A stretch of DNA of 64,000 nt from Eledone cirrhosa. Its lineage: Eukaryota. Below the pieces are notes generated by a model that was not told the origin of the DNA, searched no databases, and saw nothing but the letters and a program-made list of their open reading frames with translations. Positions 2,748 to 58,757 of this stretch are shown one piece after another. The stretch is from NCBI GenBank assembly GCA_964016885.1, contig OZ024752.1, forward strand, positions 20,212,001 to 20,276,000. Reading direction: 5' to 3'. How positions within the stretch are numbered: position 1 is the first letter of the stretch; every line of letters begins with the position of its first letter. Both the position numbers and the translations under genes were made by a program.

Positions 2748-4042
2748 CAGGGTGTGGACGATATTTGTTCGCAATTTTCAACTGCTAATTTTATGCAAAT
2801 TTTTTTTACTTCCGTTGTCACTCTTGTCTTCATAAAAACAGTGACTATATTTCCATTATTTATTTTAAGAATAATTGATTATGAATAATTTTGAACCTCC
2901 AAATTTGTGGACGAGACACGGAGTTCTTCTTGGAATCCACGCCGGGAGGACAAATAAGGAAATTTCAGACTTTCTCAGCGTCAGCAGGAGAATGGTGGAA
3001 AAGGTTAGAAAGGAATTGGAAGATTCAGGATTCGACTACGAAGGAACATCAGAGAGGAAAACACATGATCGACGATCTGACGCCTTCAGAACGCCCGAGT
3101 TCGTCGCTGAAGTTCAGGATATCATCAACAATGAACCTAGCAAGTCGGTGCGTGCCATTGCAAGGGAGAAAGGTGTGGATGAAAAGCTCATTAGGCTGGT
3201 GGTACATGAAGACATTCGCTACATTTCATACAAGATGAGGAAAAGACAATTTCTGTCAAAGGGGATGCAAGAAAAGCGACTGAAGCACGCAAAGAAGCTG
3301 ATCAACAAGTTGAAACACCCACTGGAGCCAGACATGCTGTGGTTTTTCTCCGACGAGAAAAACTTCTGCCAAGACCAGAAGATCAACTCCCAGAACAACA
3401 GGTGGCTCACTGTCTCATCCAAAGACGTGCCCAGAGTCATGCAGACAAAGTTTCCAGCGACAACATTGGTCATAGGTGTCGTCATGCCACCTCACTTCTT
3501 CCCTGAGGGCCTGAAGCTGAACACCGATGGCTACATCCGCGTTCTGAGCGAGGTAGTAAAGCCCTGGATCGACCAGGTAGCTGCAGGTAGGCCGTACGTG
3601 TGGCAGCAAGACTCAGCGCCCTGCCATACCAGCCGAAAGACCCAAGCCTGGCTGTCAGAGAACTTCGTCAACCACACTTCACCTGACATCTGGTCTCCCA
3701 GTTCGACTGACTACAACCCCCTTGACTTCTTTGTGTGGGGCGCAGTGGAATGAGACACCAACAGATCTAGCTGCAATACGAAAGACGATCTGAAGACCAG
3801 GATCACAAGTGCCTATAGGGGCCTAAGTTGGGGGGGGGGGACAGTGACGAAGGCCTGTAGCCGGTTCCGAGGCCGCCTTGAGGCCGTCATCAAAGCCAAT
3901 GGCGGGTTTATCGAGTGAGATCGAAAGAACAAGTCATGAAGACAAACTGACCCAAGTTTGATAAATATATCTTAAAAAATAAAACTACTGTGTTATTTTT
4001 TCCTAGACAGTAATCTTGCAAACAAATATCGTCGGCACCGTG
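2748..4042 (+). mobile_element. Tc1/mariner DD37D (maT) DNA transposon, near full length, transposase disrupted
   Basis: TA|CAGGGTGTGGACGATATTTGTT...AACAAATATCGTCGGCACCGTG|TA TIRs with TA TSD. ORF 2875-3753 has FSDEK, WQQDSAPCH and NPLD with 37 residues between the last two Asp; premature TGA. Confidence 0.92.
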
Positions 4043-6290: not shown

Positions 6291-6319
6291 TCAGCAACAT
6301 AATAATACAGCTCTTGTGT

Positions 6320-7898
6320 GTACTACATATAGGACATACTGTCTGTACTACATATAGGACATACTGTCTGTACTACACATAGGACATACCGTCTGTACTA
6401 CACATAGGACATACCGTCTGTACTACATATAGGACATACCGTCTGTACTACATATAGGACATACCGTCTGTACTACATATAGGACATACCGTCTGTACTA
6501 CACATAGGACATACTGTCTGTACTACACATAGGACATATTGTCTGTACTATATATAGGACATACCGTCTGTACTACACATAGGACATATTGTCTGTACTA
6601 TATATAGGACATACTGTCTGTACTACATATAGGACATACTGCCTGTACTACATATAGGACATACCGTCTGTACTACACATAGGACATATTGTCTGTACTA
6701 CATATAGAACATACTGTCTGTACTACATATAGAACATTGTCTGTACTACACATAGGACATACCGTCTGTACTACACATAGGACATACCGTCTGTACTACA
6801 CATAGGACATACCGTCTGTACTACACATAGGACATACCGTCTGTACTACATATAGGACATACTGTCTGTACTACATATAGGACATACTGTCTGTACTACA
6901 TATAGGACATACCGTCTGTACTACACATAAGACATACCGTCTGTACTACACATAAGACATACCGTCTACTACACATAGGACATACCGTCTGTACTACACA
7001 TAGGACATACCGTCTGTACTACACATAGGACATACCGTCTGTACTACACATAGGACATACCGTCTGTACTACACATAGGACATACCGTCTGTACTACACA
7101 TAGGACATACCGTCTGTACTACACATAGGACATACCGTCTGTACTACACATAGGACATACCGTCTGTACTACACATAGGACATACCGTCTGTACTACATA
7201 TAGGACATACCGTCTGTACTACATATAGGACATACCGTCTGTACTACATATAGGACATACCGTCTGTACTACATATAGGACATACCGTCTGTACTACATA
7301 TAGGACATACCGTCTGTACTACATATAGGACATACCGTCTGTACTACATATAGGACATACCGTCTGTACTACACATAGGACATACCGTCTGTACTACACA
7401 TAGGACATACCGTCTGTACTACACATAGGACATACCGTCTGTACTACACATAGGACATACCGTCTGTACTACACATAGGACATACCGTCTGTACTACACA
7501 TAGGACATACCGTCTGTACTACACATAGGACATACCGTCTGTACTACACATAGGACATACCGTCTGTACTACACATAGGACATACCGTCTGTACTACACA
7601 TAGGACATACCGTCTGTACTACATATAGGACATACCGTCTGTACTACATATAGGACATACCGTCTGTACTACATATAGGACATACTGTCTGTACTACATA
7701 TAGGACATACTGTCTGTACTACATATAGGACATACTGTCTGTACTACATATAGGACATACTGTCTGTACTACATATAGGACATACTGTCTGTACTACATA
7801 TAGGACATACTGTCTGTACTACATATAGGACATACTGTCTGTACTACATATAGGACATACTGTCTGTACTACACATAGGACATACTGTCTGTACTACA
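6320..7898. repeat. 25-bp minisatellite, roughly 60 copies
   Basis: Unit gtactacaYataggacatacYgtct, head to tail, no spacers. Confidence 0.97.
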
Positions 7899-7936
7899 CC
7901 CAAGGTTTAACAGTATGAATTGAATAAATAATATCT

Positions 7937-11275: not shown

Positions 11276-14200
11276 AAAAAAAAGAAGAAAAAAGAAAAGA
11301 AAAAAAGAAATATATATATATATATATACATACATATATACACACACATACATACACATACACATATACACACACATACATTAATAACAATAACAATAAT
11401 AATAATAGCAATAATAATAATAACGACAACAACAATAATAATATACATATTAATATATATATACACACACACGCACGCACATAAGCATATCTACACACAC
11501 ACACACACACACACGATAGCAACTAACAGTGCTGCGATCGAATGTGGCTTTTTAGCCCAGCCAATGATCTAAAATGTCTTGCACAGAGTCGGCAACCAAA
11601 ACATTCACTGGGAATAGTCGGCTGTGGTGTCAGCAGAGATGTTAGTGTCTTTCAAAGAGGCTTTCAATGAATCCTTATACCTCTTTTTTGGTTTAGGTGG
11701 CAGTCGTTTTCCTTTAACCAACTCTCCATAGAAGAGTTGTTTTGGTATTCTAGAATCCTTCATCCTGGCAAGGTGACCACTCCAACGGAGTCGTTGCTTA
11801 AGCACAAGAGCTTCTATACTGTCACACATAGAGCTTTCCAAAATCTCGACATCACTGATGTGGTCCCTCCAGTGAACGCCATGGATCCGTCTGAGACACA
11901 TCTGATGGAAACGCTCCAATTGCTTAAGGTGGCGTCGATATGTGACCCAGGTCTCGCAGGCATAAAGAAGACAAGAGAGTACACATGCCCTGTACACCTT
12001 TACCTTTGTCCTCCTGCATATGTCTCGCCGACCCCAGAGTCGCCTTTCTAGCTTTCCGAAAGCATCACTTGCTTTCCTAATCCTAAGTGAGATTTCACTG
12101 TCACGGTTGCCGTATCGATTGACAGTGCTTCCCAGGTAGACAAACTGATCAACCACTCCAAGTCGTTTGCCATACACATAGATGTTTGGTTCAGTGTACT
12201 GCTTACTAGGGGCAGGTTGGTACATGACGACGGTTTTCTTGAGACTGACAGTCAAACCCAGGGCAGTGCAAGCGTCAGAAAATGCATTCAAAATGTGCTG
12301 CATATCACTCTCTGTGTGCGCTACAAGATCGCAATCATCTGCATACAAGAGGTCTCTTATGACTGATGTAAATACTTTTGTCTTCGCAGCAAAGCGCCTG
12401 ATGTTAAATATGCTGCCTGAGGTTCGATATCGGATGTAAACACCATGCTCGCAATTCCTGAATGCAATACAGAAAACCATTGCAAAGTATATGGCAAACA
12501 GGGTCGGTGCTGGAATATCCCCCTGTTTCACTCCATTTTTTACTGAGATAGGCTCCGACATGTTACCTCCGACATTAACCCAAGCCTTCATGTCGTCATG
12601 GAAAGACCTAACTAAAGCAAGGAACTTATCAGGGCAACCAAGTTTCTGGAGAACCTTCCATAATGCATCTCTGTTGACAGTATCGAAAGCCTTTGTCAGA
12701 TCGACAAAAACCTGATACAGATCCAAGCCTTGTTCAATGCACTTCTCCTGGAGCTGTCTAGCTGAGAAGATCATATCAGTAGTGCCGCGTCCAGCACGAA
12801 AACCAGATTGACTTTCAGGAAGGACACAATCTGCAATGTGTGTCAGCAGACGGTCCAGAAGCACCCTACATAAAACTTTCCCTATGACAGAAAGCAATGA
12901 TATACCTCTGTAGTTCCCACAATCATTGCTGTTACCCTTTCCCTTGTACAAGACCACCATTACTGCATCTCTCCAGTCCTCAGGCACGGATTCATTAGCC
13001 CATATCCTTCCAAACAAAGAGTGAAGATGTTGCAGGAGTCTCTCACCACCATATTGTAGGAGCTCAGCATGTATGCCATCCATACCTGGAGATCTTCCAC
13101 TGTTCAGCTTCGAAATAGCCACTGCAACCTCCACAAGCGTCGGAGGTTCTGTGAGAGCTACTTTCACAGGACTTTCCGGAATGAGATTGAGGAAATCTTC
13201 ACTGACGACAGACGGCTGATTCAAAAGATCATCAAAGTGCTCTCGCCACCTTCGTAGAATTCCCTGTGAGTCACGAAGAAGTTCTTTGCCATCCTTGCTG
13301 CGAATCGGTGTCACCAGAGAAGAAGACGGTCCATAAATCTCACGCAAGAGACTGTACAACAGCTTTGTGTTATTGCAATCAGACGCAGTTTGTATCTCAC
13401 CAGCCTTCTCACTCCACCACTTATCCTTCATCTGAGAAAGACTCCGCCTAACACGTGATTTTACATCCCTGAGCTCCTCATGCAACGTATTCCTCTCCTG
13501 TGGTTTTGTCGTCAAATAGCGTGACAGAGCACGCCTCTTATCAGCCAACAAGTCTTCTATATGTACATCATTCTCATTAAACCAGTCCTGATGTTTTCTC
13601 TGCACCAATCCCAGAACACGTCTGCCTACATCATAAACCAACTTTTTAAGGGTCGGCCAATCCTCACCAAGATCTGCAGCCTGCATCTCTTCTTCCAATG
13701 TCCTCTTCACATTTTTATCCTTAAGACGAGCAGCATTCAATCTTTTGGGCAGGGTAACACCAGGAGCCCGGATTTTACGTTTGGTGATTAGATTCACTTT
13801 TGCGCGTACCAGGTGGTGGTCCGTCCAGCACTCAGCTCCACAAAGAACACGAACACACTGCACATCCTGTCTGTCACGCATCCTGACTAGGACGTAGTCC
13901 AAAAGATGCCATTCCTTAGATGCAGGATGCATCCATGTGGTCTTGAATTTGTTCTTTTGTTGGAACATGGTGTTGGTAACACACAGATCCAGCTCCTCAC
14001 ACATCTGCAGCAGGAGCATACCATTGTTGTTACACTTTCCCACCCCATGCCTTCTGATTACATTCCATGTGTTAAAATCCCTACCCACTCTAGCATTAAA
14101 GTCACCAAGCACGATGACTTTGTCTGCCTGAGGGATATTTCTTAGAACACCTTTCAAGGCATGGTAAAAGGACAGTTTTTCTTCATCGACAGAATTCATA

Positions 14201-15045
14201 GTTGGAGCATACACACTCACCAGGGTAGCATATCTTCCCTTGTCCAGCGGAACTCTCATGGACATAAGACGCTCACTAATCCCTACTGGGAATTCTTCTA
14301 ATTTGTTCACAAGTACAGTCTTAACAGCAAATCCTACCCCAGCCTCTCTTCTGGTTCCTTCATCTCTTCCTTTCCAGAAGAATGTATATTCTCCACAAAA
14401 TTCCGTAAGATGACCATCTCCAGCTAACCTCGTCTCAGATAAAGCCACGATGTCAAGATCGTAACGTCGAAGCTCCTTTGCAACAAGAGCGGTCCTTCGT
14501 TCAGGACGCTCCAAAGAATCCCTGTCAAGCAGCGTCCGTACGTTCCAGCAGCCAAGACTAAATGCCCTGTTTGGCTCTATTACAATGGCACGATGACGGG
14601 CGGGCCCAGGTTGTGATAACTTGGGGCCCCTGCCCTTATTGCCAATGATCTTTTTTGTTCCAGAACCTAAATTGGCAATTATCTCGTTTACATTGTTCTG
14701 GAACATCATTGAATTGGTAAAAAAAAAAAAAAAAAAAAAAAGTAATAATAATAGTAATAATAATAATAATAGTACACTATTAATAATTATTAATGCACTC
14801 GTGCAATGCCTGTGCGTGACGAATATTTTTAAAGTGAGGAAAGACTGTGCACTGAATCAATCCCACTCTCTGAGCGACAGTAGCTATAACCCGAAAAGAA
14901 GAAAAGATCAACATCATCGGTAACTACTGAGCCGCAGGTTTTATATCGGAGTTAACCCAGTTTCCTGAGATGCCTTCTCCTAGAAGAATGCCCTGACAAG
15001 GGCTAGGGGTTCTTCACTCCCAGTGGTTTAACTGCGCGATCGAGC
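11191..15045 (-). mobile_element. Near full-length RTE-BovB-like LINE
   Basis: ORF 11605-14709 with APE (WNVRTL, LSETR, GDFNA, TDH) and RT (DLTKAFD, GVKQG, LYADD); out-of-frame C-terminal C2H2 at about 11525-11600; 3' end 11191-11230 before an (ATGT)n tail; 5' UTR-like block 14770-15045. Confidence 0.9.
11605..14709 (-). CDS. RTE ORF: AP endonuclease plus reverse transcriptase, about 1030 aa, C-terminus lost by frameshifting deletion
   Basis: Uninterrupted frame with the APE and RT motifs listed for the element. Confidence 0.88.
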   Translation of the reverse strand: MMFQNNVNEIIANLGSGTKKIIGNKGRGPKLSQPGPARHRAIVIEPNRAFSLGCWNVRTLLDRDSLERPERRTALVAKELRRYDLDIVALSETRLAGDGHLTEFCGEYTFFWKGRDEGTRREAGVGFAVKTVLVNKLEEFPVGISERLMSMRVPLDKGRYATLVSVYAPTMNSVDEEKLSFYHALKGVLRNIPQADKVIVLGDFNARVGRDFNTWNVIRRHGVGKCNNNGMLLLQMCEELDLCVTNTMFQQKNKFKTTWMHPASKEWHLLDYVLVRMRDRQDVQCVRVLCGAECWTDHHLVRAKVNLITKRKIRAPGVTLPKRLNAARLKDKNVKRTLEEEMQAADLGEDWPTLKKLVYDVGRRVLGLVQRKHQDWFNENDVHIEDLLADKRRALSRYLTTKPQERNTLHEELRDVKSRVRRSLSQMKDKWWSEKAGEIQTASDCNNTKLLYSLLREIYGPSSSLVTPIRSKDGKELLRDSQGILRRWREHFDDLLNQPSVVSEDFLNLIPESPVKVALTEPPTLVEVAVAISKLNSGRSPGMDGIHAELLQYGGERLLQHLHSLFGRIWANESVPEDWRDAVMVVLYKGKGNSNDCGNYRGISLLSVIGKVLCRVLLDRLLTHIADCVLPESQSGFRAGRGTTDMIFSARQLQEKCIEQGLDLYQVFVDLTKAFDTVNRDALWKVLQKLGCPDKFLALVRSFHDDMKAWVNVGGNMSEPISVKNGVKQGDIPAPTLFAIYFAMVFCIAFRNCEHGVYIRYRTSGSIFNIRRFAAKTKVFTSVIRDLLYADDCDLVAHTESDMQHILNAFSDACTALGLTVSLKKTVVMYQPAPSKQYTEPNIYVYGKRLGVVDQFVYLGSTVNRYGNRDSEISLRIRKASDAFGKLERRLWGRRDICRRTKVKVYRACVLSCLLYACETWVTYRRHLKQLERFHQMCLRRIHGVHWRDHISDVEILESSMCDSIEALVLKQRLRWSGHLARMKDSRIPKQLFYGELVKGKRLPPKPKKRYKDSLKASLKDTNISADTTADYSQ

Positions 15046-15119: not shown

Positions 15120-18100
15120 AATAACCTTCCTGCTCCCTACTATTCTTCACCCCCCTCCCCTATACATCGTATACGCGCCTGCTGGCTCTCTCTCAATCCC
15201 ATCCCTCTTCAAACATAAAATAAACTTGTTGCGGGGTGCGAAACTCAGAATTTGTCGACCCCTATTCTTGGCTACATCGCTCGCTCTTCTGTGTAATGTA
15301 ATGTACGAATCCTATTTTTCTTGTCTCTCCATCTTCACCGGTCCATTCATCTATCTGTATCACCAATCTTTTCTTTTTCAATGCTATTCGATAATTCTGT
15401 CTGATCGTTTAAAATAATCTTCATGTAATTTAAAATCCCATAATTCTTCTCTTATTACAGTTATATGCTCGTTCGATTATGGCCAAAATTTGTGGATTTT
15501 ATTTTATAACCTTCTCACTAACTACCCCAGATCCCTGAATGTAGGCACCTTAAAAGGCCGCTCTAACGAGGTTGTAGAAATGCTTGAATGTAAGGAGGTT
15601 GATGTTTGCTGTATTCAAGAAACCAGGTGGAGGGATGGGTCTGCTAGATTCATTGTGGGTAAAAAACGATGTTATAAGCTTTTCTGGGTGGAAAATGACA
15701 ATGGGCTGGGTGGATAGGAATCATGGTAGCAGAAAAGTGGGCAGATAAGATAATAGACGTAAATAGAGTGAACGACAGACTAATTAAAATAAGACTTGTC
15801 CTCAATAGAACTGCGTATGCACCCCAATCCGGACTGCCTGGCGTTATAAAAGACGGATTCTATGAGTCGTTTATGCTCATTACCTCCCAAATAACCAACA
15901 GTGACTATATAATTATTGCTGGCGACCTCAATAGTCACGTTGGACAACACTGTGATGGCTATGACGGAATCCATGGAGGCTATGGGTTTGGTACTAGAAA
16001 TGAGGAAGGCTCCAGAATCCTGGAATTCTGTGACGCAAATAACCTAACTATCTGTAACACTAACTTCAAAAAACGAGACAATCACTAGATCAGGGGAACA
16101 CGCCAGTCAGATAGATTATATCCTTACCAGAAGACGTGACAGAGTGTATGTCGTAAACACTAAATCCCTCCCCCATGAAGAATGCACCTCCCAACATAGC
16201 CTCATAGTTAGCGACCTCATAGTCAGGACGAGACATACCTGACAACAGAGGAGGACTGTCCTCAGGAGAAAAATATGGAAGTTAAAGGATGCTTTTGACA
16301 GTAAGGAAGAGCAATTAGAGTTGTACAATATAGAGGAATTCCTGAAAGCTAACCTGCTGAAGGCCACAGATGAAATCTGTGGCTGGAGCAGACCTATAGG
16401 CAGGAGGAGAGTAACATGGTGGTGGAATAGTAAGGTGGAGGAGTCGATCAAGGCCAAAAAGCAGGCTTGGAAAGTATGACAGGATGGGGGAAGTAGAGAA
16501 GACTATCAAGTGGCCAGGGGGGAAGCTAGGAGACAAGTGTACCTTGCAAGAAGGGAAGCAGAGGAAAGAAAGTTCAAGCATGTTCTACAACGCGAGGACC
16601 AAAAACGTGAGGTGTTCAGGATTGCTAGGCAATGTGTCAAGGAAAAATGATATTGTCGGGGAGAAGTGTGGAGATGATGGTGTACTGGCCATCACTGACG
16701 CTGATAAGAAGGTAGCTCGGAAGTGTCACTACGAAAGGCTACTAAATTAGAAGAATAAATGTGAGAAAGAAAGTCTCTCCCACATCGATCCAATAGAGGG
16801 ACCAGCAGTGCTAGTTGAAGGTAGTATAATAAGTAAGGCAATGAAAGATATGAAGACGGTGGGACACACTATGGTCACCCGGATAGTAAACCAAGTCATA
16901 CAGAATGGGGTCGTACCAAAGGACTGGCATAGCATCATCATCATTAACTGCTACAAGGGTAAAGGAGATGCCCTAGATAGGGGAAACTATAGAGGCATTA
17001 AATTAATTGACCAGGTCATGAAGGTCACAGAAAAAGTAATAGCGCAACTAATCAGAGAGCGAATTGATCTAGATGAAATGCAGTTTGGGTTTGTGTCAGG
17101 TAAAAGTATCACAGACGCTCTTTTCATTGTACGACAACTACAGGAGAAGTACCTAGCTAAAAGTAAACCTCTATACTTAGATTTCATTGACTTGGAGAAA
17201 GCCTTTGACCATTATCTGGTGGGCCCTTAGAAAACTAGGGTTGATGAATGGCTTGTGAGAGCTATACAAGCCATGTATAAAGAAACAGTCAGCAAGGTTA
17301 GAATTAACAACGAATATAGTAAAGAGTTTAGCGTAAAAGTTGGTGTTCATCAGGGCTCCGTCCTTAGCCCCCTCCTATTTATTATCGCCCTCCAAGCTAT
17401 AACGGAGGAGTTCAAGACCGGCTGTCCATGGGAATTTCTATACGCAGATGATCTAACGCTTATAACCGAATCAATGGCCGAACTAGAGAAGAAATTCCAA
17501 ACATGGAAGCATGGCCTAGAATCAAAAGGCCTTAAAATTAACTTGTCTAAGACTAAAGTTCTAATATGTAGAAAGGAGAATAGGGCACTGGTCCCATCTG
17601 GGAAATGGCCATGCTCAGTGTGTAGGAAAGGAGTAGGCAGAAACTCCATTTTATGTCCCAAATGTAAAGTATGGGTACATAAAAGATGTAGTGGGATCAC
17701 AGGTAAGCTAACTAAGAACATAGATTTTATCTGTGGCCGGTGCTCTGGTGCAATAAGTAACAGCAAATGCCCACAGAATACTAGCTCATTCCATTGCCCA
17801 GTTGATTTTATAGAAATAGTGGACACCTTCCGTTACCTGGATGACAAAATCAGCAGTGGTGTAAGGTGCTCCGAAAGTACTGTAGCTAGAGTCAGAATGG
17901 GATGGAAAAAGTTCAGAGAGCATATACCACTATTGGCCGCTAAAGGTTTCTCTCTAAAAATGAAAGGCAGGCTGTATGATGCCTGCATATGAACAGCGAT
18001 GTTACATGGCAGTGAGACATGGGCCTTGTGTGCAGAGGATCTATGCAGACTGGAGAGGAACGAAGCTTGCATGCTCCGTTGGATGTGTAATAGTAATATA

Positions 18101-29429: not shown

Positions 29430-30255
29430 CACTGGGAGCAAAAAAACCCAAGTAATGTGCAAGTTTTTCAAGAACGGGACATGCTGGCATGGAGAGACAG
29501 GGATGGGATGCAGATTCGCCCACCCTAGGTCTCAAACGAACTATGCCCATCATACTCGCGCAACATGCCCCAGCCAAAGCCGAAATAAGCCGCTCCAGAA
29601 GTATGCTGATGTCGCGCGTGCTGCACCAACAAGGAGAAGGCACGCACATGCCGACGAGATACAGATGGCAGCAGCAGAGCAGAAAATTTTTTTAGTGATG
29701 GCAGAGAAGATTGTGGGACAGCTGACCTGGCTGCATCGTCTCCAGCGCCAGGGTCATCCACATCCACACCAGCACTCGAGACCACCACAGTTAAGGGACC
29801 CAGAATGGCCGCCGCTGACAGCAGACCAGGTGTCATACCGACAGCAATTACTGGCACCCCAAAAGTCACACCAGTGCTGCTGCTGAATGTCAGAGGCCTG
29901 GTGAAACTCAGTAACATGAGTAAAATTTCCTACCTGGGAGACTTAGCCACAAGCAATCAAGCACTATGCATGGCACTAACCGAAACGCACCTGACAAGCA
30001 GTATAGCAGATGCAGAAATACATATACCGAAATATACTGTATTTCGTTCGGACAGGAAGGAGAGAGCTCATGGTGGGGTTGCTCTGTATATCCGTGAAGA
30101 TGTCACACCAATTGTACTGTTGACACATTCAAACTCAGGCTGTGACACACTGATAATACATATGAAGCAACTACAGACAGTAATATGTGTCACATATTGG
30201 CCGCCCGATGCTCCCAGTCATGAGGGTAAATTTGAGGATAGCCTAAGTAGGATAC
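29430..30255 (+). mobile_element. 5' fragment of a CR1/Jockey-like LINE: ORF1 CCCH finger overlapping the ORF2 AP endonuclease start
   Basis: [23 protein letters not shown]; LLNVRGL, LTETHL, DRKERAHGGVALYIRE, YWPP. Confidence 0.75.
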
Positions 30256-30383
30256 ATATGTATATATAGTGTATTTTGCAATACACTTTATGCTTAATTA
30301 AAAGCATTTTGAAGACCGTAAGCTATTGATTTTTAGAGTAGTGACAAATTCACTTACTTTGATCTCAGCAAACAGGGGAGATA

Positions 30384-30428
30384 AGCCAACAAGGCCTTGT
30401 TTCGCTTTTGTTGAAGCTTGTCAAGGCT
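30384..30428 (-). ncRNA. Hammerhead motif (family 3, U3:A8 variant, inverted copy)
   Basis: Reverse complement agcc-TTGACAA-gctt/aagc-GAAA-caaggcctt-GTT-ggct. Confidence 0.65.
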
Positions 30429-30705
30429 AACTACTCCCCTGTTTGCTGAAATCAAAGTAAGTGAATTTGTCACTACTCTAAAAAACAATAGCTTACGGTC
30501 TTCAAAATGTTTTTAATTAAGCATAAAGTGTATTGCAAAATACACTATATAAACATCCATATATATATTGCTATTTCAGAGCTCCAATTCTAATTTTTAA
30601 TTTCTGCCTGACCAACAACCGCTCTGCATAATCAGCTCCTGATTATTTACTAGAATTCTATAAGAATATAACATCAGTGATCTCGGTAGACAGGTGGGAG
30701 TAGTT

Positions 30706-30750
30706 AGCCTTGATAAGCTTCAACAAAAGCGAAACAAGGCCTTGTCGGCT
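30706..30750 (+). ncRNA. Hammerhead motif (family 3, U3:A8 variant)
   Basis: agcc-TTGATAA-gctt/aagc-GAAA-caaggcctt-GTC-ggct; stem I extends through gggag/ctccc. Confidence 0.78.
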
Positions 30751-30918
30751 TATCTCCCCTGTTTGCTGAGATCAAAGTAATTGAATTGGTCACTACTCTA
30801 AAAAACAATAGCTTACGGTCTTCAAAATGCTTTTAATTAAGCATAAAGTGTATTGCAAAATACACTTTATATACATCCATATATATATTGCTATTTCAGA
30901 GCTCCAATTCTAATTTTT

Positions 30919-38995
<8,077 letters not shown>

Positions 38996-41519: not shown

Positions 41520-44267
41520 AAAAATATGAAGACGTAGCATCTCAGAGTTGCAACACTTAATGTTGGCACTCTAACAGGTAGATCTGGTGAAATAGCGGAG
41601 ATGCTGGAGAGAAGGCAGGTGGATGTGTGCTGCGTGCAAGAGGTGAGATGGAGAGGTGCCTCTGCGAGACTAGTCGCAGGCAAACATCTTAGCTATAAGC
41701 TTTCCTGGGTAGGTAAGGTTGATGGGTTGAGGGGTGTAGGCATTTTCCTGGCTGAGAGATGGATCAATAAGACAATAGAGGTAGTTTGAGTTAATAATCG
41801 AATAATTAAGCTTAGATTAGTTGTAGGCAGGAGACTAGTGACAATCATCTCTGCCTATGCTCCCCAAGCAGGCCTTAGTAAAGAAGAGAAAGACTGCTTT
41901 TACGAGCAACTTTTACAGACAGTCACAATGACAGAGGATAGAGACATCGTTATGCTAGCAGGGGACTTCAATGGTCATGTTGGACAGCTCCAGGATGGTT
42001 ACACTGGGGTACATTGTGGGCACGGTTACAGCTCAAGAAATGAAGAAGGACTGAGACTTCTTGAATTTTGTGATGCAAATGCACTAACCATTTGCAACAC
42101 TAACTTCCAGATGCCTACCAACCACCTAATAACCTACAAATCAGGCGAGCACATAAGCCAGATTGACTTCTTACTAGTTAGGCAGCGGGACAGGCAGATG
42201 GTGTCAAATACTAAGGCATACTCTGGGGAAGAATGTACCCCACAGCATAGGTTAGTCGTTAGTGATATCTCAGTAAGCAAGAGATGGAATGAGACATACA
42301 GGAAGGTGTGGAGAAGAAAGGTCAAATTTCGGAAAGCCCTTCAAGATGTGTATGGCGAAAAAGAAGAAGATTTAGAAACGTATGACATAGATAATAACTG
42401 GAATTTCTTATGTGACAAGTTACTGCAGGCTACTGATGAAACTTGTGGCTGGAGCAGAGCTTCAACCAGACAGAGATTGACTTGGTGGTGGAACAGCACA
42501 GTAGATAGGGCCATGAGAGACAAAAGACTAGCATGGAAGGCTTAGAAAAAGGTTGGGAGTAGAGAAGGATATACAGCCACTAAGAGAGAGGCTAGACGTC
42601 AGGTGTACTTAGCACACAGGGAGGCTGAGAGTAGGAGGTTTGCCAATGTTCTGCAACGGGAAGATCAAAGGCGTGCGGTGTTCCACATTGCAAGGCAGTG
42701 TGTCAATGCAAATCAGGACGTTGTTGGAGATAAATGTGTCCGGAATGATGCCGGTGTACTTAGTGTCACGAATGATCAGAAAAAGGAGGCCTGGAAATGT
42801 CATTATGAGAGACTCATGAATGTGGAGAACGAATGGGAGAGAGAAAAATTACCCTCAGTAGATCTGACAGAGGGACCAGCTATTGAGACTGACGAATATA
42901 GGGTCCAAGAGGTAATTAAGGAAATGAAAAATGGTAAGGCTGCTAGACCGTCAGGGATAGTTGCTGAGATGCTGAAGGCATCAGGGGACGTAGGCACTAA
43001 ACTGGTTGCATGCATCATCAATCAGGCTATATATGACGGTGTCATACCCAAAGACTGGTGCAGCAGTATTCTCATAAATTGCTATAAATGTAAAGGGGAT
43101 GCTCTGGAGAGGAGCAATTATAGGGGTATAAAATTGATGGATCAGGTTATGACAGGTTATGAGGAATGGCTTGTGAGGACAGTGCAGACTTTGTACAGAG
43201 GTGCTGTCAGTAAAGTCAGGGTAGGAATGGAGTTTAGTGAGGAATTCCAGATACAAATAGGAATACATCAAGGTTTGGTCCTCAGCTCGCTCTTGTTCAC
43301 TATAGTCTTCCAAGCCATAACAGAGGAGTTTAAGACTGGCTGTCAATGGGAACTTCTCTATGCTGACGATCTGGTTCTTATAGCAGAATCAGTAGAGGAG
43401 CTAGAGAATAAATTCTAGCTATGGAAACAGCAGTTGGAATTAAGAGGACTGAGAGTGAACCTAGCTAAGACAAAAGTATTGATGAGTAGAAAAGAGGACA
43501 AAACTCTGATTCCGTCAGGGAAATGGCCATGTTCAATATGCAGAAAAGGAACTGGCATAAATCCTATAAAATGCACACAGTGCAGATCCTGGGTACACAA
43601 GAGATATAGTGTGATAGCAGGCAAACTAACAGGTAGGGAGAAATACGTATGCAGTAGATGCACATGGAAATTAGACAGTAGAAGTCGCATTGATAGACAC
43701 ACTTTTCAAATGCAGGTGGGTGCTATAGAAGTGGTGGATAGCTTCCGGTACCTAGGAGATCAGATTAGCATGGGAGAGGGGTGTTCCGAGGCCTTAGTAT
43801 CTAGAATAAGGACTGGCTGGAAGAAGTTTAGGGAGCTGCTTTTTCTGCTGACAAATAAGGGTTTCTCCCTGCATACGAAAGGCCGGTTATATGATGCCTG
43901 TGTGAGGTGTGCGATGCTGAATGGTAGTGAGACATGGGTGCCAACTGCAGAGGATATGCGATGGCTGGAGAGAAATGAGGCAAGCATGCTCCGTTGGATG
44001 TGCAGTGTCAATGTGCGTGAACGATCCAGCATGAATGTGTTGAGAGATAAACTGTGTCTGAGAGGGATAGAATGTAGTGTACGGGAGAGGAGACTGAGGT
44101 GATATGGACATGTGATAGCATGGAGGATGACCGATGGGTGAAGAAGTGCAAGGAATAGCCAGTTGAAGGAAGACGTGGTAGAGGTAGACCACAAAAAACA
44201 TGGGCGGAGGTAGTGAGAACAGACCTCAGATTGCTGAAGCTCATGGTGGAGATGACGCAGGACCGTG
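41520..44267 (+). mobile_element. Decayed RTE (family B), extreme 3' end missing
   Basis: APE (GDFNGHVG), RT (ELLYADD) and Cys-rich finger; stops and an internal deletion. Confidence 0.9.
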
Positions 44268-47230
44268 CTGATTTTGTCACCCAAGTAACGGAAGGTGTCC
44301 ATTATTTCTATAGAACCATCTGTGCAATGGAATGAGCTAGTATTCTGTGGGCACTTGCTGCTACTTATTGCACCAGAGCACCGGACACATATAAAATCTA
44401 TATTCTTAATTAGCTTACCTGTGATCCCACTACATCTTTTATGCACCCATACTTTGCATTTGGGACATAAAATGGAGTTCCTGCCTACTCCTTTCCTACA
44501 CACTGAGCATGGCCATTTCCCGGATGGGACCGGTGCCCTATTTTCCTTCCTACAAACCAGAAGTTTAGTCTTAGACAGGTTAATTTTAAGGCATTTTGAT
44601 TCTAGGCCATGCTTCCATGTTTGGAATTTCTTCTCTAGTTCAGCCATTGATTCAGCTATGAGCGTTAGATCATCTGCGTATAGGAGTTCCCATGGGCAGC
44701 CGGTCTTGAACTCCACTGTTATAGCCTGAAAGGCAATAATAAATAGTAGGGGGCTAAGAACGGAGCCCTGATGAACATCAACTTTTACGCTAAACTCTTC
44801 ACTATATTCGTTGTTAATTCTAACCTTGCTGACTGTTTCTTTATACATGGCTTGTATAGCTCTCACAAGCCATTCATCAACACCTAGTTTTCTAAGAGCC
44901 CACCAGATAATGGAACGGGGGACTCTGTCAAAGGCTTTCTCCAAGTCGACAAAAGCTAAGTATAGGTGTTTACTTTTAGCTAGGTACTTCTCCTGTCGTT
45001 GTCGTACAATGAAAAGAGCGTATGTGATACTTTTACCTGACACAAACCCAAACTGCATTTCATCTAGATCAATTCGCTCTCTGATTAGTTGTGCTATTAC
45101 TTTTTCTGTGACCTTCATGACCTGGTCAATTAATTTAATGCCTCTATAGTTTCCCCTATCTAGGGCATCTCCTTTACCCTTGTAGCAGTTAATGATGATG
45201 CTGCTACGCCAGTCCTTCGGAACAACCCCATTCTGTATGACTTGGTTTACTATCCGGGTGACCATGGTGTGTCCCACCGTTCCAGAAGCTTTCAGCATTT
45301 CAATAACTATTTCCGAAGGCTCAGCCGCCTTACCCATCTTCATATCTTTGATTGCCTTACTTATTATACTACCTTCGACTAACACTGCTGGTCCCTCTAT
45401 TAGATCGATGTGGGGGAGACTGTCTTTCTCCCATTTATTCTCCTCATTTAGTAGCCTTTCGTAGTGACACTTCCAAGCTACCTTTTTATCAGCATCAGTG
45501 ATAGCAAATACACCATCATCATTAAGGACACACTTCTCCCCGACAATATCACAGTTTTCCTTGACACATTGCCTAGCAATCCTGAACACCTCACGTTTTT
45601 GGTCCTCGCGTTGTAGAACATGCTTGAACTTTCTTTCCTCTGATTCCCTTCTTGCGAAGTACACTTGTCTCCTAGCTTCCCTCATGGCCACTTGATAGTC
45701 TTCTCTACTTCTCCCATCCCGCCATACTTTCCAAGCCTGCTTTTTGGCCTTAATTGACTCCTCCACCTTACTGTTCCACCACCATGTCACTCTCCTCCTG
45801 CCTATAGGCCTGCTCCAGCCACAGACTTCATCTGCCGCCATCAGCAGGTTTGCTTTCAGGAATTCCCACTGTTCCTCTATATTGTACGACTCTAATTGCT
45901 CTTCCTTACTGTCGAAAGCATCAAGTAATATGCTTTTAAATTCATTACTGGCTGTGGGGTCCTTTAGCTTCCATATTTTTCTCCTGAGGATAGTCCTCTT
46001 CTGTTGTCGAGTACGTCTCGTCCTGACTATGAGGTGGCTAATTATGAGTCTATGTTGGGAAGTGCATTCTTCATGGGGGAGGGATTTAGTGTTTACAACA
46101 GACACTCTGTCACGTCTTCTGGTAAGGATATAATCTACCTGGCTGGTATGTTCCCCTGATCTGTAGGTGATCAAGTGATTGTCTCGTTTTTTGAAGTTAG
46201 TGTTACTGATAGTTAGGTTATTTGCGTCACAGAATTCCAGGATTCTGGAGCCTTCTTCATTTCTAGTACTAAACCCATAGCCTCCATGGATTCCGTCATA
46301 GCCATCACAATGTTGTCCAACATGACCATTTAGGTCGCCAGCAATAATTATATAGTCACTGTCGGTTATTTGGGAGGTAGTGAGCATCAGTGTCTCATAG
46401 AATCTGTCTTTTATAGCGCCAGGCAGTCCGGATTGGGGTGCGTACACAGATATTACTGTCACAGTAGTTCTATTTAGAACAAGTCTTATTTTAATTATTC
46501 TGTCATTCACTCTATTTACGTCTATTATCTTATCCACCCATTTTTCTGCTAACATGATTCCTACCCCACACAGCCCATTGCCATTTCCCACCCAGTAAAG
46601 CTTATAGCATCGTTTTTTACCCACAATGAATCTAGCCGACCCGCCCCTCCACCTGGTCTCTTGGATACAGCAAACATCAACCTCCTTACGTTCAAGCATT
46701 TCTACAACCTCGTTAGAGTGGCCTTTTAAGGTGCCTACATTCATGGTACCAACTCTGAAGTTTTGGATTGTGTTTGGTGGGTGGGGTGCGGGGAGGGGGG
46801 AGGGGGATGGGGTTGGGATTATGTTGGCCATACGCGGCCGAAACAAAGCAGCATGAGGTGAATTTGTCGTTATCTTTGGCATTGTCTCCGAGTGTCCAGA
46901 TTCTTCAGACTCTCCAGAAATTCCTTAGTCCATCCATCATATCCATAAAAGCAACCAGGATAAGTGATAGCATAGGCCGCTGACTTATGATTGGTCCAAA
47001 TAATAATGGTGGAGAGTGGGGGCGGGTGGGAGGGGTATGGGGTAGTTAGCGAGGAGAAGGTTTTAAATAAAGCATATAACAGTAACAAGCGATATACTGG
47101 GATTTTAAAATACACAATATTATTTAGAACAGCCAGACAGAATTATAGAATAGCATTGAGAAAGTAGGATTGGATTCTGGGCGATTATACAGATATATGG
47201 ATGAATGGGGAGACAAGAAGAAAATGGTAT
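44268..47230 (-). mobile_element. RTE (family A) with open APE-RT-PHD frame, 3'-truncated
   Basis: ORF from 46882 open through FRYLGDKIS, then running into the antisense of the neighbouring element; 5' UTR to about 47230. Confidence 0.9.
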
Positions 47231-53869: not shown

Positions 53870-55870
53870 GGGCCTTCGGAAATAGTTGCTGAGATGCTGA
53901 AGGCATCTGGCACGGTGGGACACACCATGGTCACCCGCATAGTTAACCAAGTCGTACAGAATGGGGTTGTTCCGAAGGACTGGCATAGCAGCATCATCGT
54001 TAACTGTTATAAGGGTAAAGGAGACGCCCTAGATAGGAGTAACTATAGAGGCATTAAATTAATCGACCAGGTCATGAAGGTCACGGAAAAAGTAATAGCG
54101 CAACTAATCAGAGAGAGAATTGATCTAGATGAAATGCAGTTCGGGTTTGTGTCAGGCAAAAGTACCACAGACGCTCTTTTCATTGTACGACAACTACAGG
54201 AGAAGTACCTAGCTAAAGGTAAACCCCTCTACTTAGCTTTTGTCGACTTGGAGAAAGCCTTCGACAGAGTCCCCCGTTCCATTATCTGGTGGGCCCTTAG
54301 AAAACTAGGTGTCGACGAATGGCTTGTGAGAGCTATACAAGCCATGTATAAAGAAACAGTCAGCAAGGTTAGAATTAACAACGAATATAGTGAAGAGTTT
54401 AGCGTAAAAGCTGGCGTCCATCAGGGCTCTGTTCTCAGCCCCCTACTATTTATTATTGCCCTTCAGGCTATAACAGAGGAGTTCAAGACCGGCTGCCCAT
54501 GGGAACTCCTATACGCAGACGACCTGACACTCATAGCTGAATCAATGGCCGAGCTAGAGAAGAAATTCCAAACATGGAAGCACGGCCTAGAATCAAAAGG
54601 CCTTAAAATTAACCTGGCTAAGACTAAAGTTCTAGTTTGTAGGAAAGAAAATAAGGCGGCAGTCCCTTCTGGCAAATGGTCGTGCTCAGTGTGTAGGAAA
54701 GGCGTAGGTAGAAACTCCATTTTATGTCCTAAATGCAAAGTATGGGTGCATAAAAGATGTAGTGGGAACACAGGTAAGCTAACTAAGAACATAGATTTTA
54801 CATGTGGCCCGTGCTCTGGTGCAATAAGTAGCAGCAAGTGCCCACAAAATACTAGCTCTTTCAATTGCGCAGAGGGTTCTATAGAAATAGTGGACAGTTT
54901 CCGTTACCTGGGTGATAAAATCAGCAGTGGGGGAGGGTGCTCTGAAAGTACAGTAGCTAGAGTCAGAACTGGTTGGAAAAAGTTCAGAGAGCTTATACCA
55001 CTATTAGCTGCTAAAGGGTTCTCCCTAAAAATGAAAGGCAGGTTGTACGATGCCTGCATACGAACAGCAATGTTGCATGGCAGTGAGACCTGGGCATTGT
55101 GTGCAGAGGATATACGCAGACTAGAGAGGAACGAAGCTTGCATGCTCCGCTGGATGTGTAACAGTAATATACGTGAACGGCAACGCATAAACGAACTAAG
55201 GAAAAAATTAGAAATAAGAGGGATCAGATGTTGTTTACTCGAGAGAAGGCTACGTTGGTATGGACACGTGATGCGCATGAAAGTCGATAGCTGTATAACA
55301 AAGTGCAGGGCAATAAAGATAGACGGTAGCCACGGAATAGGCAGACCTAGAAAAACCTGGGACGAGCTGATAAACTCCGACCTTACACACTTACACCTCT
55401 CCAAGACAATGTCACTGGACCGAGACCTTTGGCGGTACTCAGTAACAGAGAAGACCCGCCTTACCTAAATACATAGTAAAACCTACTACAGCCAGTAGGC
55501 ATCTCTAACAAAATACCCCCCCCCCCCCCCGTCCCACCACCCCCACCCCATCCACGCCACCCCGTTCTATGTAAAGTTGTGTTGGTGCCACACCATCCAG
55601 GCCGAAACAAATGAGATCGTGTAGGTGTCACGAAAAAAAAACACACAGTCCACGCTGTAATGTGGCCGTGTAGGCAACACGGTAAAAACCTCCCAGACCC
55701 ACACTGTAAATGTGGTTGGTGTTAGGAAGGGCATCCAACTGTAGAAAACCTGCCAGACAGTCCTATGCGAGCAAGACAATCACTCTTGCCTCAAGTGGGA
55801 CTACACCCGTCCAAACCCATGCAAGCGTGGAACACGGACGTTAAACGTTGATGATGATGATGATGATGAT
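53870..55870 (+). mobile_element. Young 5'-truncated RTE family A (ORF 53894-55468 open)
   Basis: RT motifs, PHD finger, 3' UTR and (GAT)n tail; flanked by TA tracts. Confidence 0.93.
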
Positions 55871-56917
<1,047 letters not shown>

Positions 56918-58757
56918 TTAACTGTTATAAGGGTAAAGGAGACGCCCTAGATAGGAGTAACTATAGAGGCATTAAATTAATCGACCAGGTCATGAAGGTC
57001 ACGGAAAAAGTAATAGCGCAACTAATCAGAGAGAGAATTGACCTAGATGAAATGCAGTTCGGGTTTGTGTCAGGCAAAAGCACCACAGACGCTCTTTTCA
57101 TAGTACGACAACTACAGGAGAAGTACCTAGCTAATGGTAAACCCCTCTACTTAGCTTTTGTCGACCTGGAGAAAGCCTTCGACAGAGTCCCCCGCTCCAT
57201 TATCTGGTGGGCTCTTAGAAAACTAGGCGTTGACGAATGGCTTGTGAGGGCTATACAAGCCATGTATAAAGAAACAGTCAGCAAGGTTAGAATTAACAAC
57301 GAATATAGTGAAGAGTTTAGCGTAAAAGTTGGCGTCCATCAGGGCTCTGTTCTCAGCCCCCTACTATTTATTATTGCCCTTCAGGCTATAACAGAGGAGT
57401 TCAAGACAGGCTGCCCATGGGAACTCCTATACGCAGACGACCTGACACTCATAGCGGAATCAATGGCCGAGCTAGAGAAGAAATTCCAAACATGGAAGCA
57501 CGGCCTAGAGTCAAAAGGACTTAAAATTAACCTGGCTAAGACCAAAGTTCTAGTTTGTAGGAAAGAAAACAAGGCGGCGGTCCCTTCTGGGAAATGGTCG
57601 TGCTCGGTATGTAGGAAAGGCGTAGGTAGAAACTCCATCTTATGTCCTAAATGCAAAGTATGGGTGCATAAAAGATGTAGTGGGATCACAGGTAAGCTAA
57701 CTAAGAACATAGACTTTACATGTGGCCGGTGTTCTGGTGCAATAAGTAGCAGCAAGTGCCCACAAAATACTAGCTCTTTCAATTGCGCAGAGGGTTCTAT
57801 AGAAATAGTGGACAGCTTCCGTTACCTGGGCGATAAAATCAGCAGTGGGGGAGGGTGCTCTGAAAGTACTGTAGCTAGAGTCAGAACTGGTTGGAAAAAG
57901 TTCAGAGAGCTTATACCACTATTAGCTGCTAAAGGGTTCTCCCTAAAAATGAAAGGCAGGTTGTACGATGCCTGCATACGAACAGCAATGTTGCATGGTA
58001 GTGAGACCTGGGCATTGTGTGCAGAGGATATACGCAGACTAGAGAGGAACGAAGCTTGCATGCTCCGCTGGATGTGTAACAGTAATATACGTGAACGGCA
58101 AAGCATAAACGAACTAAGGAAAAAATTAGAGATAAGAGGGATCAGATGTTGTTTACTCGAGAGAAGGCTGCGTTGGTATGGACACGTGATGCGCATGAAA
58201 GTCGATAGCTGTATTACAAAGTGCAGGGCAATAAAGATAGACGGTAGCCACGGAATAGGCAGACCTAGAAAAACATGGGATGAGCTGATAAACTCCGACC
58301 TCACACACTTACACCTCTCCAAGACAATGTCACTGGACCGAGACCTTTGGCGGTACTCAGTAACAGAGAAGACCCGCCTTGCCAGTAGGCATCTCTATCA
58401 AAATACACCCCGTCCCGCCACCACCCCCACCCCATCCACACCAACCCGTTCTATGTAAAGTTATGTTGGTGCCGCGCCATCCAGGCCGAAACAAATGAGA
58501 TCGTGTAGGTGTCACGACAAAAAAACACACAGTCCACGCTGTAATGTGGCCGTGTAGGCAACACGGTAAAAACCTCCCAGACCCACACTGTAAATGTGGT
58601 TGGTGTTAGGAAGGGCATCCAACTGTAGAAAACCTGCCAGACAGTCCTATGCGAGCAAGACAATCACTCTTGCCTCAAGTGGGACTACCCCCGTCCAAAC
58701 CCATGCAAGCGTGGAACACGGACGTTAAACGTTGATGATGATGATGATGATGATGAT
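56918..58757 (+). mobile_element. Young 5'-truncated RTE family A (ORF 56992-58458 open)
   Basis: Highly similar to 53870-55870, with a different 5' truncation point and scattered substitutions. Confidence 0.93.

What the first reader, a model, noticed from the sequence alone, without database searches (positions are those of the whole stretch)
30263..30918. 320-bp tandem unit plus inverted copy carrying a U3:A8 variant hammerhead
Seen: 30434-30598 repeats at 30754-30918 (period 320) with the ribozyme between, and 30263-30438 is an inverted copy that switches strand at the ctcccc base of stem I. Both ribozyme copies read UUGANAA instead of CUGANGA. Established: C3:G8 is a tertiary pair, and U3:A8 is a compensatory change. 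Inference: the double change suggests selection for catalysis. About 1.5 monomers plus an inversion fits reverse transcription of a circular or multimeric RNA by a Penelope-type RT, and the 8-kb TA tract starts right at its end.
Basis: partly seen in the sequence, partly recalled or inferred. Interest (0 to 1): 0.75.

Follow-up and report, generated by a model that had tools for sequence, protein, structure and literature searches.

The report
Penelope-spread retrozyme with U3:A8 hammerhead
This is one copy of an abundant 320-base non-coding repeat carrying a known variant of a self-cutting RNA motif; its mirror-image insertions bear the end pattern of Penelope-type jumping genes, which likely copy it from both sides of a break in TA repeats, so it is a new family of a known kind of mobile element.

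Summary
Observation confirmed, with corrections: the TA tract is 10.6 kb, and the inverted ribozyme has GUU, not GUC, at the cut site. The unit is a dispersed, non-coding, hammerhead-bearing tandem repeat (non-LTR retrozyme). U3:A8 is fixed in the family (1828 pattern matches; 0 with C3:G8). Sister families about 80% alike keep C3:G8, and helices covary across 23 variants (18 of 28 pairs change on both sides), so the fold is likely selected. In 48 systematically sampled loci, 34 are head-to-head arms. All 29 with two standard ends pair one short with one long end, the Penelope 'tail' pattern. 5' ends are scattered, none at the cut site, so the stem I strand switch is local microhomology. Coding Neptune-like elements in this genome show the same layout, and two families also carry U3:A8. 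No coding parent was found; two chimeric loci point weakly to one helper family. U3:A8, the inversion, the tail and TA bias are all in print. Cleavage, expression and a circular template are untested. The scan noted this pattern before, in this genome and others.

The parts
30258..30438 (-). Inverted arm, 0.56 unit, 5'-truncated inside stem I; 3' end at about u123-126 (short-type end), joined to a LINE remnant
30376..30438 (-). Type I hammerhead, U3 at 30424, A8 at 30419, core UUGACAA, cut-site triplet GUU (position 17 at 30388)
30434..30438 (.). CTCCC microhomology at the head-to-head junction (the two strands of distal stem I); specific to this locus
30434..30918 (+). Direct arm, 1.5 units of the 320-bp monomer (u1 = 30434; 34% GC); 3' end at u161-166 (long-type end, ..TTCTAAT) followed by (TA)n
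30457..30579 (+). Putative retained intron (GTAAGT donor to TTTCAG acceptor, 123 nt); the donor is mutated in the second copy; splicing is inferred
   Evidence: sequence; GT(A/G)AG donor in 123 of 133 and TTTCAG in 111 of 118 sampled family copies; no spliced copy found
30559..30594 (+). The two fixed family end sites within the unit: short (internal (AT)5, u126-135) and long (TTCTAAT, u161), 26-35 nt apart, equal to a PLE 'tail'
30616..30667 (+). Most conserved block between families (92% A vs B): 8-bp hairpin or palindrome plus a TATA-like box; candidate promoter or protein-binding site (inferred)
30678..30774 (+). 17-bp stem (30678-30694 with 30758-30774) predicted to extend helix I and enclose the ribozyme; covaries across families
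   Evidence: (z -6.1)
30696..30758 (+). Type I hammerhead of canonical architecture: U3 30710, A8 30715, helix II 30717-30730, GAAA 30731-30734, 4-bp helix III in a 12-nt palindrome, predicted cut after C30746
30919..41508 (.). (TA)n/TACA microsatellite, 10.6 kb; the likely target on the long-end side
29433..30254 (+). Neighbour, not part of the element: LINE AP-endonuclease fragment cut off at the left junction; other copies continue differently

Best explanation
It is a young copy of a non-coding, hammerhead-bearing tandem repeat (a non-LTR retrozyme) that is likely copied into (TA)n tracts by the reverse transcriptase and GIY-YIG nuclease of a Neptune-type Penelope-like element acting in trans. 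SHOWN: a 316-320-nt unit without a long ORF; dispersed copies in permuted head-to-tail arms; head-to-head arm pairs; two fixed 3' ends, one on each arm; TA flanks; scattered 5' ends with short overlaps; read-through of intact ribozyme sites; a U3:A8 core fixed in one branch of a clan whose other branches have C3:G8; compensatory changes in all helices. INFERRED: (1) units are transcribed and the hammerhead cuts (about 0.7). (2) The PLE protein nicks both strands of a TA tract and starts two cDNAs at two internal sites, short on one strand and long on the other (about 0.75). (3) The two cDNAs run back through one or more units and are joined at microhomologies; in this copy the join used the complementarity of stem I. 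(4) The template is an RNA circle (about 0.5) or an uncut multimer (about 0.4); a cut linear monomer does not fit. (5) The helper is the L105-type Neptune family (about 0.35).
For: Counts in a fixed context: U3:A8 1828, U3:G8 2, non-U3 9, C3:G8 0. Sister subfamily D: 1747 U3:A8 vs 0 C3:G8, with three compensated helix II versions. Families B and C have C3:G8 and share 79-92% of the non-ribozyme module. In 23 variants 93.4% of cells pair, 18 of 28 pairs change on both sides, and the 3-8 pair is UA 13, CG 9, UG 1; slid controls pair 38-48%. Within family A, helix III switches AAG..CTT to ATG..CAT in 21 or more of 116 copies. In 48 systematic loci, 34 are two-armed and 29 of 29 with two standard ends are short+long (p 4e-9); 0 of 81 5' ends lie within u310-318; 70 of 75 arms cross a cut site and 29 cross two or more. 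64 of 75 standard ends are followed by (TA)3 or more, and 22 of 34 junctions overlap by 2 nt or more. Family B: 11 short+long, 2 short+short, 0 long+long in 29 loci. The coding Neptune-like family L102 (RT + GIY-YIG, CxxC linker) has U3:A8 in 37 of 37 matches, ends at TTTCTAAT|ATAT, and has a short-end partner arm in 7 loci. Two loci join a U3:A8 retrozyme arm directly to L105-type PLE sequence (L230, L250). The PLE features are in PMC8557442, PMC3846280 and PMC11167929.
Against: There is no evidence of cleavage or expression here. The catalytic fold is predicted about 7 kcal/mol above an alternative fold in which U3-U4-G5 pair with the helix III strand; the gap is similar in family B (5.9) and in the coding PLE (7.1), and the model lacks tertiary contacts. 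A preprint saw cleavage in only 1 of 9 Xenopus retrozyme dimers (10.64898/2026.07.22.740005). No coding element with a homologous pLTR was found. Both chimeras can also be read as insertions into a PLE's TA flank with target deletion. Units within arms are not uniform: 13 rare variants are shared by units of one arm only and 3 are in register across arms, which a single monomer circle does not predict. Exceptions to short+long: L005 among 16 similarity-picked loci and 2 family B loci.
Confidence: 0.85

Rival explanations
1. Same element and same PLE helper, but the template is an uncut linear multimer from a genomic array, and the ribozyme is weak or dispensable for insertion.
For: Unit heterogeneity in register across both arms in L038 and L234 (9 in-register, 3 mixed and 2 arm-specific sites, several uninformative). 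13 variants confined to one arm. A 33-kb array exists as a possible source. In PMC11167929 ribozyme mutants did not affect insertion in vitro, and unprocessed RNA was the main substrate. An alternative fold is predicted.
Against: Compensatory changes in every helix and at the 3-8 pair imply that the ribozyme fold matters at some step. 14 rare variants are shared by all units of a locus. In-register (2.0%) and off-register (2.6%) divergence differ little.
Confidence: 0.4
2. A 5'-truncated, inverted pLTR remnant of a coding Penelope-like element.
For: The inverted copy, tail at one end, retained intron-like signals, U3:A8 hammerhead and TA target are all PLE traits (PMC8557442, PMC4209133).
Against: In the arms each ribozyme is preceded by the previous unit at a 316-320 period, up to 6.5 units in dispersed copies. 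Only 1 of 48 loci has PLE coding sequence joined upstream, at an internal ORF position; 12 of the 48 had only 1.5-kb flanks. No pLTR of the examined PLE families resembles the unit.
Confidence: 0.05
3. A DNA-level satellite with fold-back rearrangement; the ribozyme is a passenger.
For: One 33-kb array with a six-unit higher-order pattern shows that DNA-level amplification happens. Long TA tracts are unstable (established knowledge).
Against: Copies lie on many chromosomes. Two fixed outer ends are paired 29 of 29, the inner junctions are free, the same ends occur in families 20% diverged, and RNA pairs covary.
Confidence: 0.03

Closest known systems
Metazoan non-LTR retrozymes (Cervera and de la Pena 2020, PMC7229834, passages and Discussion read; Li, Clavereau and Pollet 2026 preprint 10.64898/2026.07.22.740005, parts 1-3 of 5 read)
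   Same: 150-450-bp low-GC tandem units with a type I hammerhead, no protein, many dispersed copies, PLEs proposed as helpers.
   Different: U3:A8 core. The passages read do not describe head-to-head arms with paired short and long ends or TA targeting ('inverted' and 'microsatellite' occur 0 times in PMC7229834). Expression and circles are not shown here, and no homologous pLTR was found.
Endonuclease-bearing Penelope-like elements, Neptune clade (PMC8557442 and PMC3846280, passages read; PMC11167929, parts 1-2 of 4 read)
   Same: Inverted 5'-truncated copy, 30-40-bp tail at one end only, two internal RT start sites, microsatellite bias, hammerhead, intron-like signals kept.
   Different: No ORF; the whole element is the repeat unit. 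PMC11167929 saw no difference in start site between strands in vitro, whereas these insertions pair one short with one long end.
U3-A8 hammerheads (Schistosoma PLE minimal hammerheads, about 1300 hits, PMC4209133 parts 1-2 of 4 read; natural variants in PMC3088659, passages read)
   Same: The same compensatory change at the 3-8 pair; PMC3088659 states it was shown active in vitro (the primary paper was not held).
   Different: Here it sits in a canonical-architecture hammerhead (4-bp helix II, 6-nt loop 2, 4-bp helix III, internal loop in helix I) of a non-coding repeat, with C3:G8 sister families in the same genome.

Membership tests
Non-LTR retrozyme | Tandem unit of 150-450 bp with GC below 50% | tested here: met
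   316-320 bp, 34% GC, arms up to 6.5 units, one 33-kb array
Non-LTR retrozyme | Type I hammerhead in each unit | tested here: met
   109 of 116 sampled cores are TTGATAA and 105 of 116 have GAAAC..GTC; covariation
Non-LTR retrozyme | No protein-coding capacity | tested here: met
   ATG ORFs within the element are at most 29 aa
Non-LTR retrozyme | Self-cleavage of the transcript | not testable with these tools
   Folding predictions only
Non-LTR retrozyme | Expression as linear and circular monomer RNA | not testable with these tools
   Needs RNA reads of this organism
Non-LTR retrozyme | Target-site duplication when present; no PBS or PPT | not tested
   Ends lie in (TA)n, where duplications cannot be read; PBS and PPT were not searched
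Type I hammerhead (Rfam clan CL00010) | Conserved core with a paired 3-8 position and three helices | tested here: met
   3-8 pair formed in 23 of 23 variants
Type I hammerhead (Rfam clan CL00010) | Score above a family gathering threshold | tested here: not met
   HH9 22.2 bits vs 52
PLE-type insertion | Inverted 5'-truncated copy, head to head | tested here: met
   34 of 48 loci
PLE-type insertion | 30-40-bp tail at one end only | tested here: met
   End sites 26-35 nt apart; 29 of 29 short+long
PLE-type insertion | Microsatellite bias | tested here: met
   64 of 75 ends followed by (TA)3 or more; no genome-wide null was computed
Autonomous PLE (pLTR of a coding element) | RT + GIY-YIG ORF flanked by this repeat | tested here: not met
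   0 of 48 family loci in that arrangement; 1 joined inside an ORF. No pLTR-position hit in 110 PLE-centred loci, only neighbouring insertions, nor in 30 more

The most novel reading that the evidence does not exclude
A clan of retrozymes records a lineage-wide C3:G8 to U3:A8 switch that damps self-cleavage so that RNA circles last. A dimer of one identifiable Neptune protein (L105 type) copies them from two different start sites, one per strand of a TA break, and sometimes jumps onto its own RNA. That would give a named helper-parasite pair and a strand-specific start-site rule not seen in vitro.
Probability: 0.2. Interest if true: 0.68.

Novelty: new member of a known kind. Interest (0 to 1): 0.4.

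Why it matters
Each part is known: retrozymes, U3:A8, and PLE inversions and tails. The value lies in the combination. A young non-coding family shows the PLE insertion footprint in 29 of 29 scorable loci, which is genomic support for the proposed but undemonstrated mobilisation of animal retrozymes by PLEs. Sister families with C3:G8 and U3:A8 cores on a shared module make a natural test set for how the 3-8 pair tunes cleavage. Resident young Neptune families supply candidate proteins for an in vitro assay. The scan has noted the same pattern in several other families of this genome, so this locus is one more example.

Tried and rejected
RNA evidence: no RNA holder listed, so expression, cut ends and circle junctions were not examined. 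Logan contigs of one sample did not bridge the left or the inversion junction, so this locus has no independent confirmation. Contigs from three other organisms (X4-X6) cover the ribozyme and list changes in helix I, loop 2 and loop 3 but none at 30710 or 30715; this rests on 1-14 contigs per run and is only a hint. Rfam hits over the TA tracts are low-complexity noise. Strand switch tied to stem I or the cut site: rejected. Stronger conservation of core than free positions within the family: not seen (position 3: 9 matches; position 8: 2; position 7: 15 matches at 6 loci). Coding parent: not found in GIY-YIG loci (50 of 150 listed, 10,596 candidates), in three PLE families or in 30 module-bearing loci. 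The unit has no significant likeness to the L102 pLTR (241 of 300 shuffles as high) or the L105-type pLTR (10 of 200, driven by TA). Spliced copies: 0 matches. Circle vs multimer: inconclusive. Searches used a mis-spaced pattern and were redone as 98-99. The 'active' energy used wrong coordinates and was redone. The motif-based end caller was noisy and was replaced. The module tree puts 13 U3:A8 rows on one side of a branch at only 88/83 support, and one decayed family B copy (L177) also has U3:A8, so a single origin is not shown. Paper searches; none listed a paper on U3:A8 retrozymes or on paired short and long ends in retrozymes. Supplements were not read, and the preprint's are closed; they may hold such cases.

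Full report
OBSERVATION. The repeats are as described. 30434-30601 recurs at 30754-30921 (95.8%, period 320), and 30258-30454 is an inverted copy of 30678-30876 (94%). The two arms meet head to head on CTCCC at 30434-30438, the two strands of distal stem I. The + hammerhead (30696-30758) has core UUGAUAA, helix II GCUU/AAGC with a 6-nt loop, GAAA, a 4-bp helix III inside a 12-nt palindrome, and GUC. The inverted one has UUGACAA and GUU. Rfam HH9 matches both below its gathering score. The TA tract is 10.6 kb. The left end abuts a LINE endonuclease fragment that other copies continue differently. Unit positions below count from u1 = 30434.

FAMILY. The genome is an animal assembly of 3.0 Gb; earlier scan notes call it cephalopod, which I did not test. 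A 261-nt query gave 1509 candidates. In one fixed 29-letter context the counts are U3:A8 1828, U3:G8 2, non-U3 9 and C3:G8 0. These are matches, not loci; about 100 lie in one 33-kb array. Free position 7 varies at a similar rate (15 matches at 6 loci), so these counts show a fixed founder state and not selection among copies. There are 320-bp and 316-bp subfamilies; copies differ by 3.8% between loci. ATG frames inside the element are at most 29 aa.

SELECTION ON THE FOLD. A GIY-YIG search led to sister families that share the non-ribozyme module (79-92% for family A vs B) but only about 53% of the ribozyme region. Families B and C have C3:G8. Family D has U3:A8 (1747 vs 0 matches) with three compensated versions of helix II. 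In 23 hand-picked variants out of 76 distinct ones, 93.4% of cells pair and 18 of 28 pairs change on both sides. The 3-8 pair is UA 13, CG 9 and UG 1; slid controls pair 38-48%. The structure was derived from one of the rows, which favours it over the slid controls. A 17-bp stem is predicted to close the ribozyme (z -6.1) and covaries too. Within family A, helix III shows a double change in at least 21 of 116 copies. A tree on 110 nt outside the ribozyme puts 13 U3:A8 rows on one side at 88/83, with one decayed family B copy also U3:A8, so a single origin is plausible but not shown. Against efficient cleavage: the catalytic fold is about 7 kcal/mol above an alternative fold in the nearest-neighbour model, also 5.9 for family B and 7.1 for a coding PLE, but 0.8 for family C.

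INSERTION ANATOMY. I took the first 100 listed matches on contig C1, which make 48 distinct loci after one duplicated locus was dropped. 34 are head-to-head arm pairs. All 29 with two standard ends have one short end (u128-143) and one long end (u160-172); 5 have one non-standard end, and 14 loci are single-armed. The 81 5' ends scatter from u5 to u308 with none at the cut site (u313), 70 of 75 arms cross a cut site and 29 cross two or more. 64 of 75 ends are followed by TA repeats, and 22 of 34 junctions (33 from the sample plus the window's) overlap by 2 nt or more. Family B gives 11 short+long, 2 short+short and 0 long+long in 29 similarity-picked loci. Among 16 other similarity-picked family A loci, L005 is an exception. 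The window copy fits: a long end on the TA tract and a short-type end on the other arm. The switch at stem I is therefore a local microhomology, and a cut linear monomer cannot be the template.

HELPER. The genome holds many GIY-YIG elements (10,596 candidates). Family L102 encodes RT + GIY-YIG with a CxxC linker (the assignment to Neptune follows the linker description in PMC8557442). It has U3:A8 in 37 of 37 matches, ends at TTTCTAAT|ATAT like the long end here, and in 7 loci its opposed arm stops 68 nt earlier; these loci were picked with a query that covers the long end. Its pLTR is not similar to the unit. No PLE-centred locus has the unit in pLTR position. Against a library of 12 PLE stretches, two retrozyme 5' junctions hit PLE sequence, both of the L105 type (L230, L250); L230 joins inside the ORF. 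These may be template switches, or insertions into a PLE flank with deletion, so the helper is a lead only.

CIRCLE OR MULTIMER. Divergence is 2.0% between arms in register, 2.6% off register and 2.3% within arms. 14 rare variants are shared by all units of a locus, 13 by units of one arm only, 3 in register and 2 off register; per-locus alignments gave 9, 3 and 2. This does not decide the question, and it is less tidy than one monomer circle predicts. Earlier scan notes on other families of this genome favour a circle; they are unchecked.

COMPARISON WITH WHAT IS KNOWN. PMC7229834 defines non-LTR retrozymes and names PLEs as strong candidate helpers. A 2026 preprint links Xenopus retrozymes to pLTRs and saw cleavage in 1 of 9 dimers. 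U3-A8 is reported in Schistosoma PLE hammerheads and as a natural variant active in vitro. Inverted 5'-truncated copies, a 30-40-bp tail at one end and TA bias are described for PLEs, and two internal RT start sites explain the tail. My five searches listed no paper on paired ends or U3:A8 in retrozymes; supplements were not seen. My reading was set down before the look-ups, and earlier notes with the same reading exist for other genomes and this one.

VERDICT. A real feature and a new family of a known kind: a non-LTR retrozyme with a known core variant, likely mobilised by a Neptune-type PLE through two-ended target priming (0.85). Cleavage, expression, template form and helper identity are open. 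Interest 0.4.

Noticed in passing
L102 (G000:C1:145870800-145876500, -): Near full-length young Neptune-like PLE with a 938-aa RT + GIY-YIG frame and a U3:A8 hammerhead in both pLTRs. Its predicted cut site overlaps a possible splice donor; its short and long ends are 68 nt apart.
   Followed up: partly
L073, L122-L151 and L119, L120, L086: Further coding PLE families with U3:A8 hammerheads (UUGAUAA or UUGAAAA ... GAAACCGGUA); 4 of 30 loci of one family have a clan retrozyme inserted next to the 3' end.
   Followed up: partly
G000:C1:97365068-97382517 (L230, L315, L316): About four tandem 4185-bp copies of an L105-type PLE, 98.9-99.9% alike, starting and ending within about 35 nt of the same unit position and ending in a family A retrozyme arm.
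   Followed up: partly
L250 (G000:C1:4921785-4924807): Head-to-head structure with one U3:A8 family D retrozyme arm, 31 nt of L105-type pLTR in the same sense, and an opposed L105-type pLTR arm.
   Followed up: partly
G000:C3:114923254-114956510 (L324, L325): 33-kb array of the 316-bp unit with a six-unit higher-order pattern; the middle 20 kb was not fetched.
   Followed up: partly
L152-L181, L248-L277, L141, L225: Sister retrozyme families B (C3:G8, U.U at the base of helix II, mostly GUU cut triplet), C (C3:G8) and D (U3:A8); 5184 matches to their end motif.
   Followed up: yes
window 11605-14856, 16751-17992, 41790-46924, 53900-58458: Several LINE copies (AP endonuclease and/or RT), one family with a PHD finger after the RT domain.
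   Followed up: no
window 6319-7899: 25-bp minisatellite, 63 copies, 96% matches.
   Followed up: no
window 2875-3753: Tc1/mariner-like transposase fragment, weak Pfam hits below cut-off.
   Followed up: no
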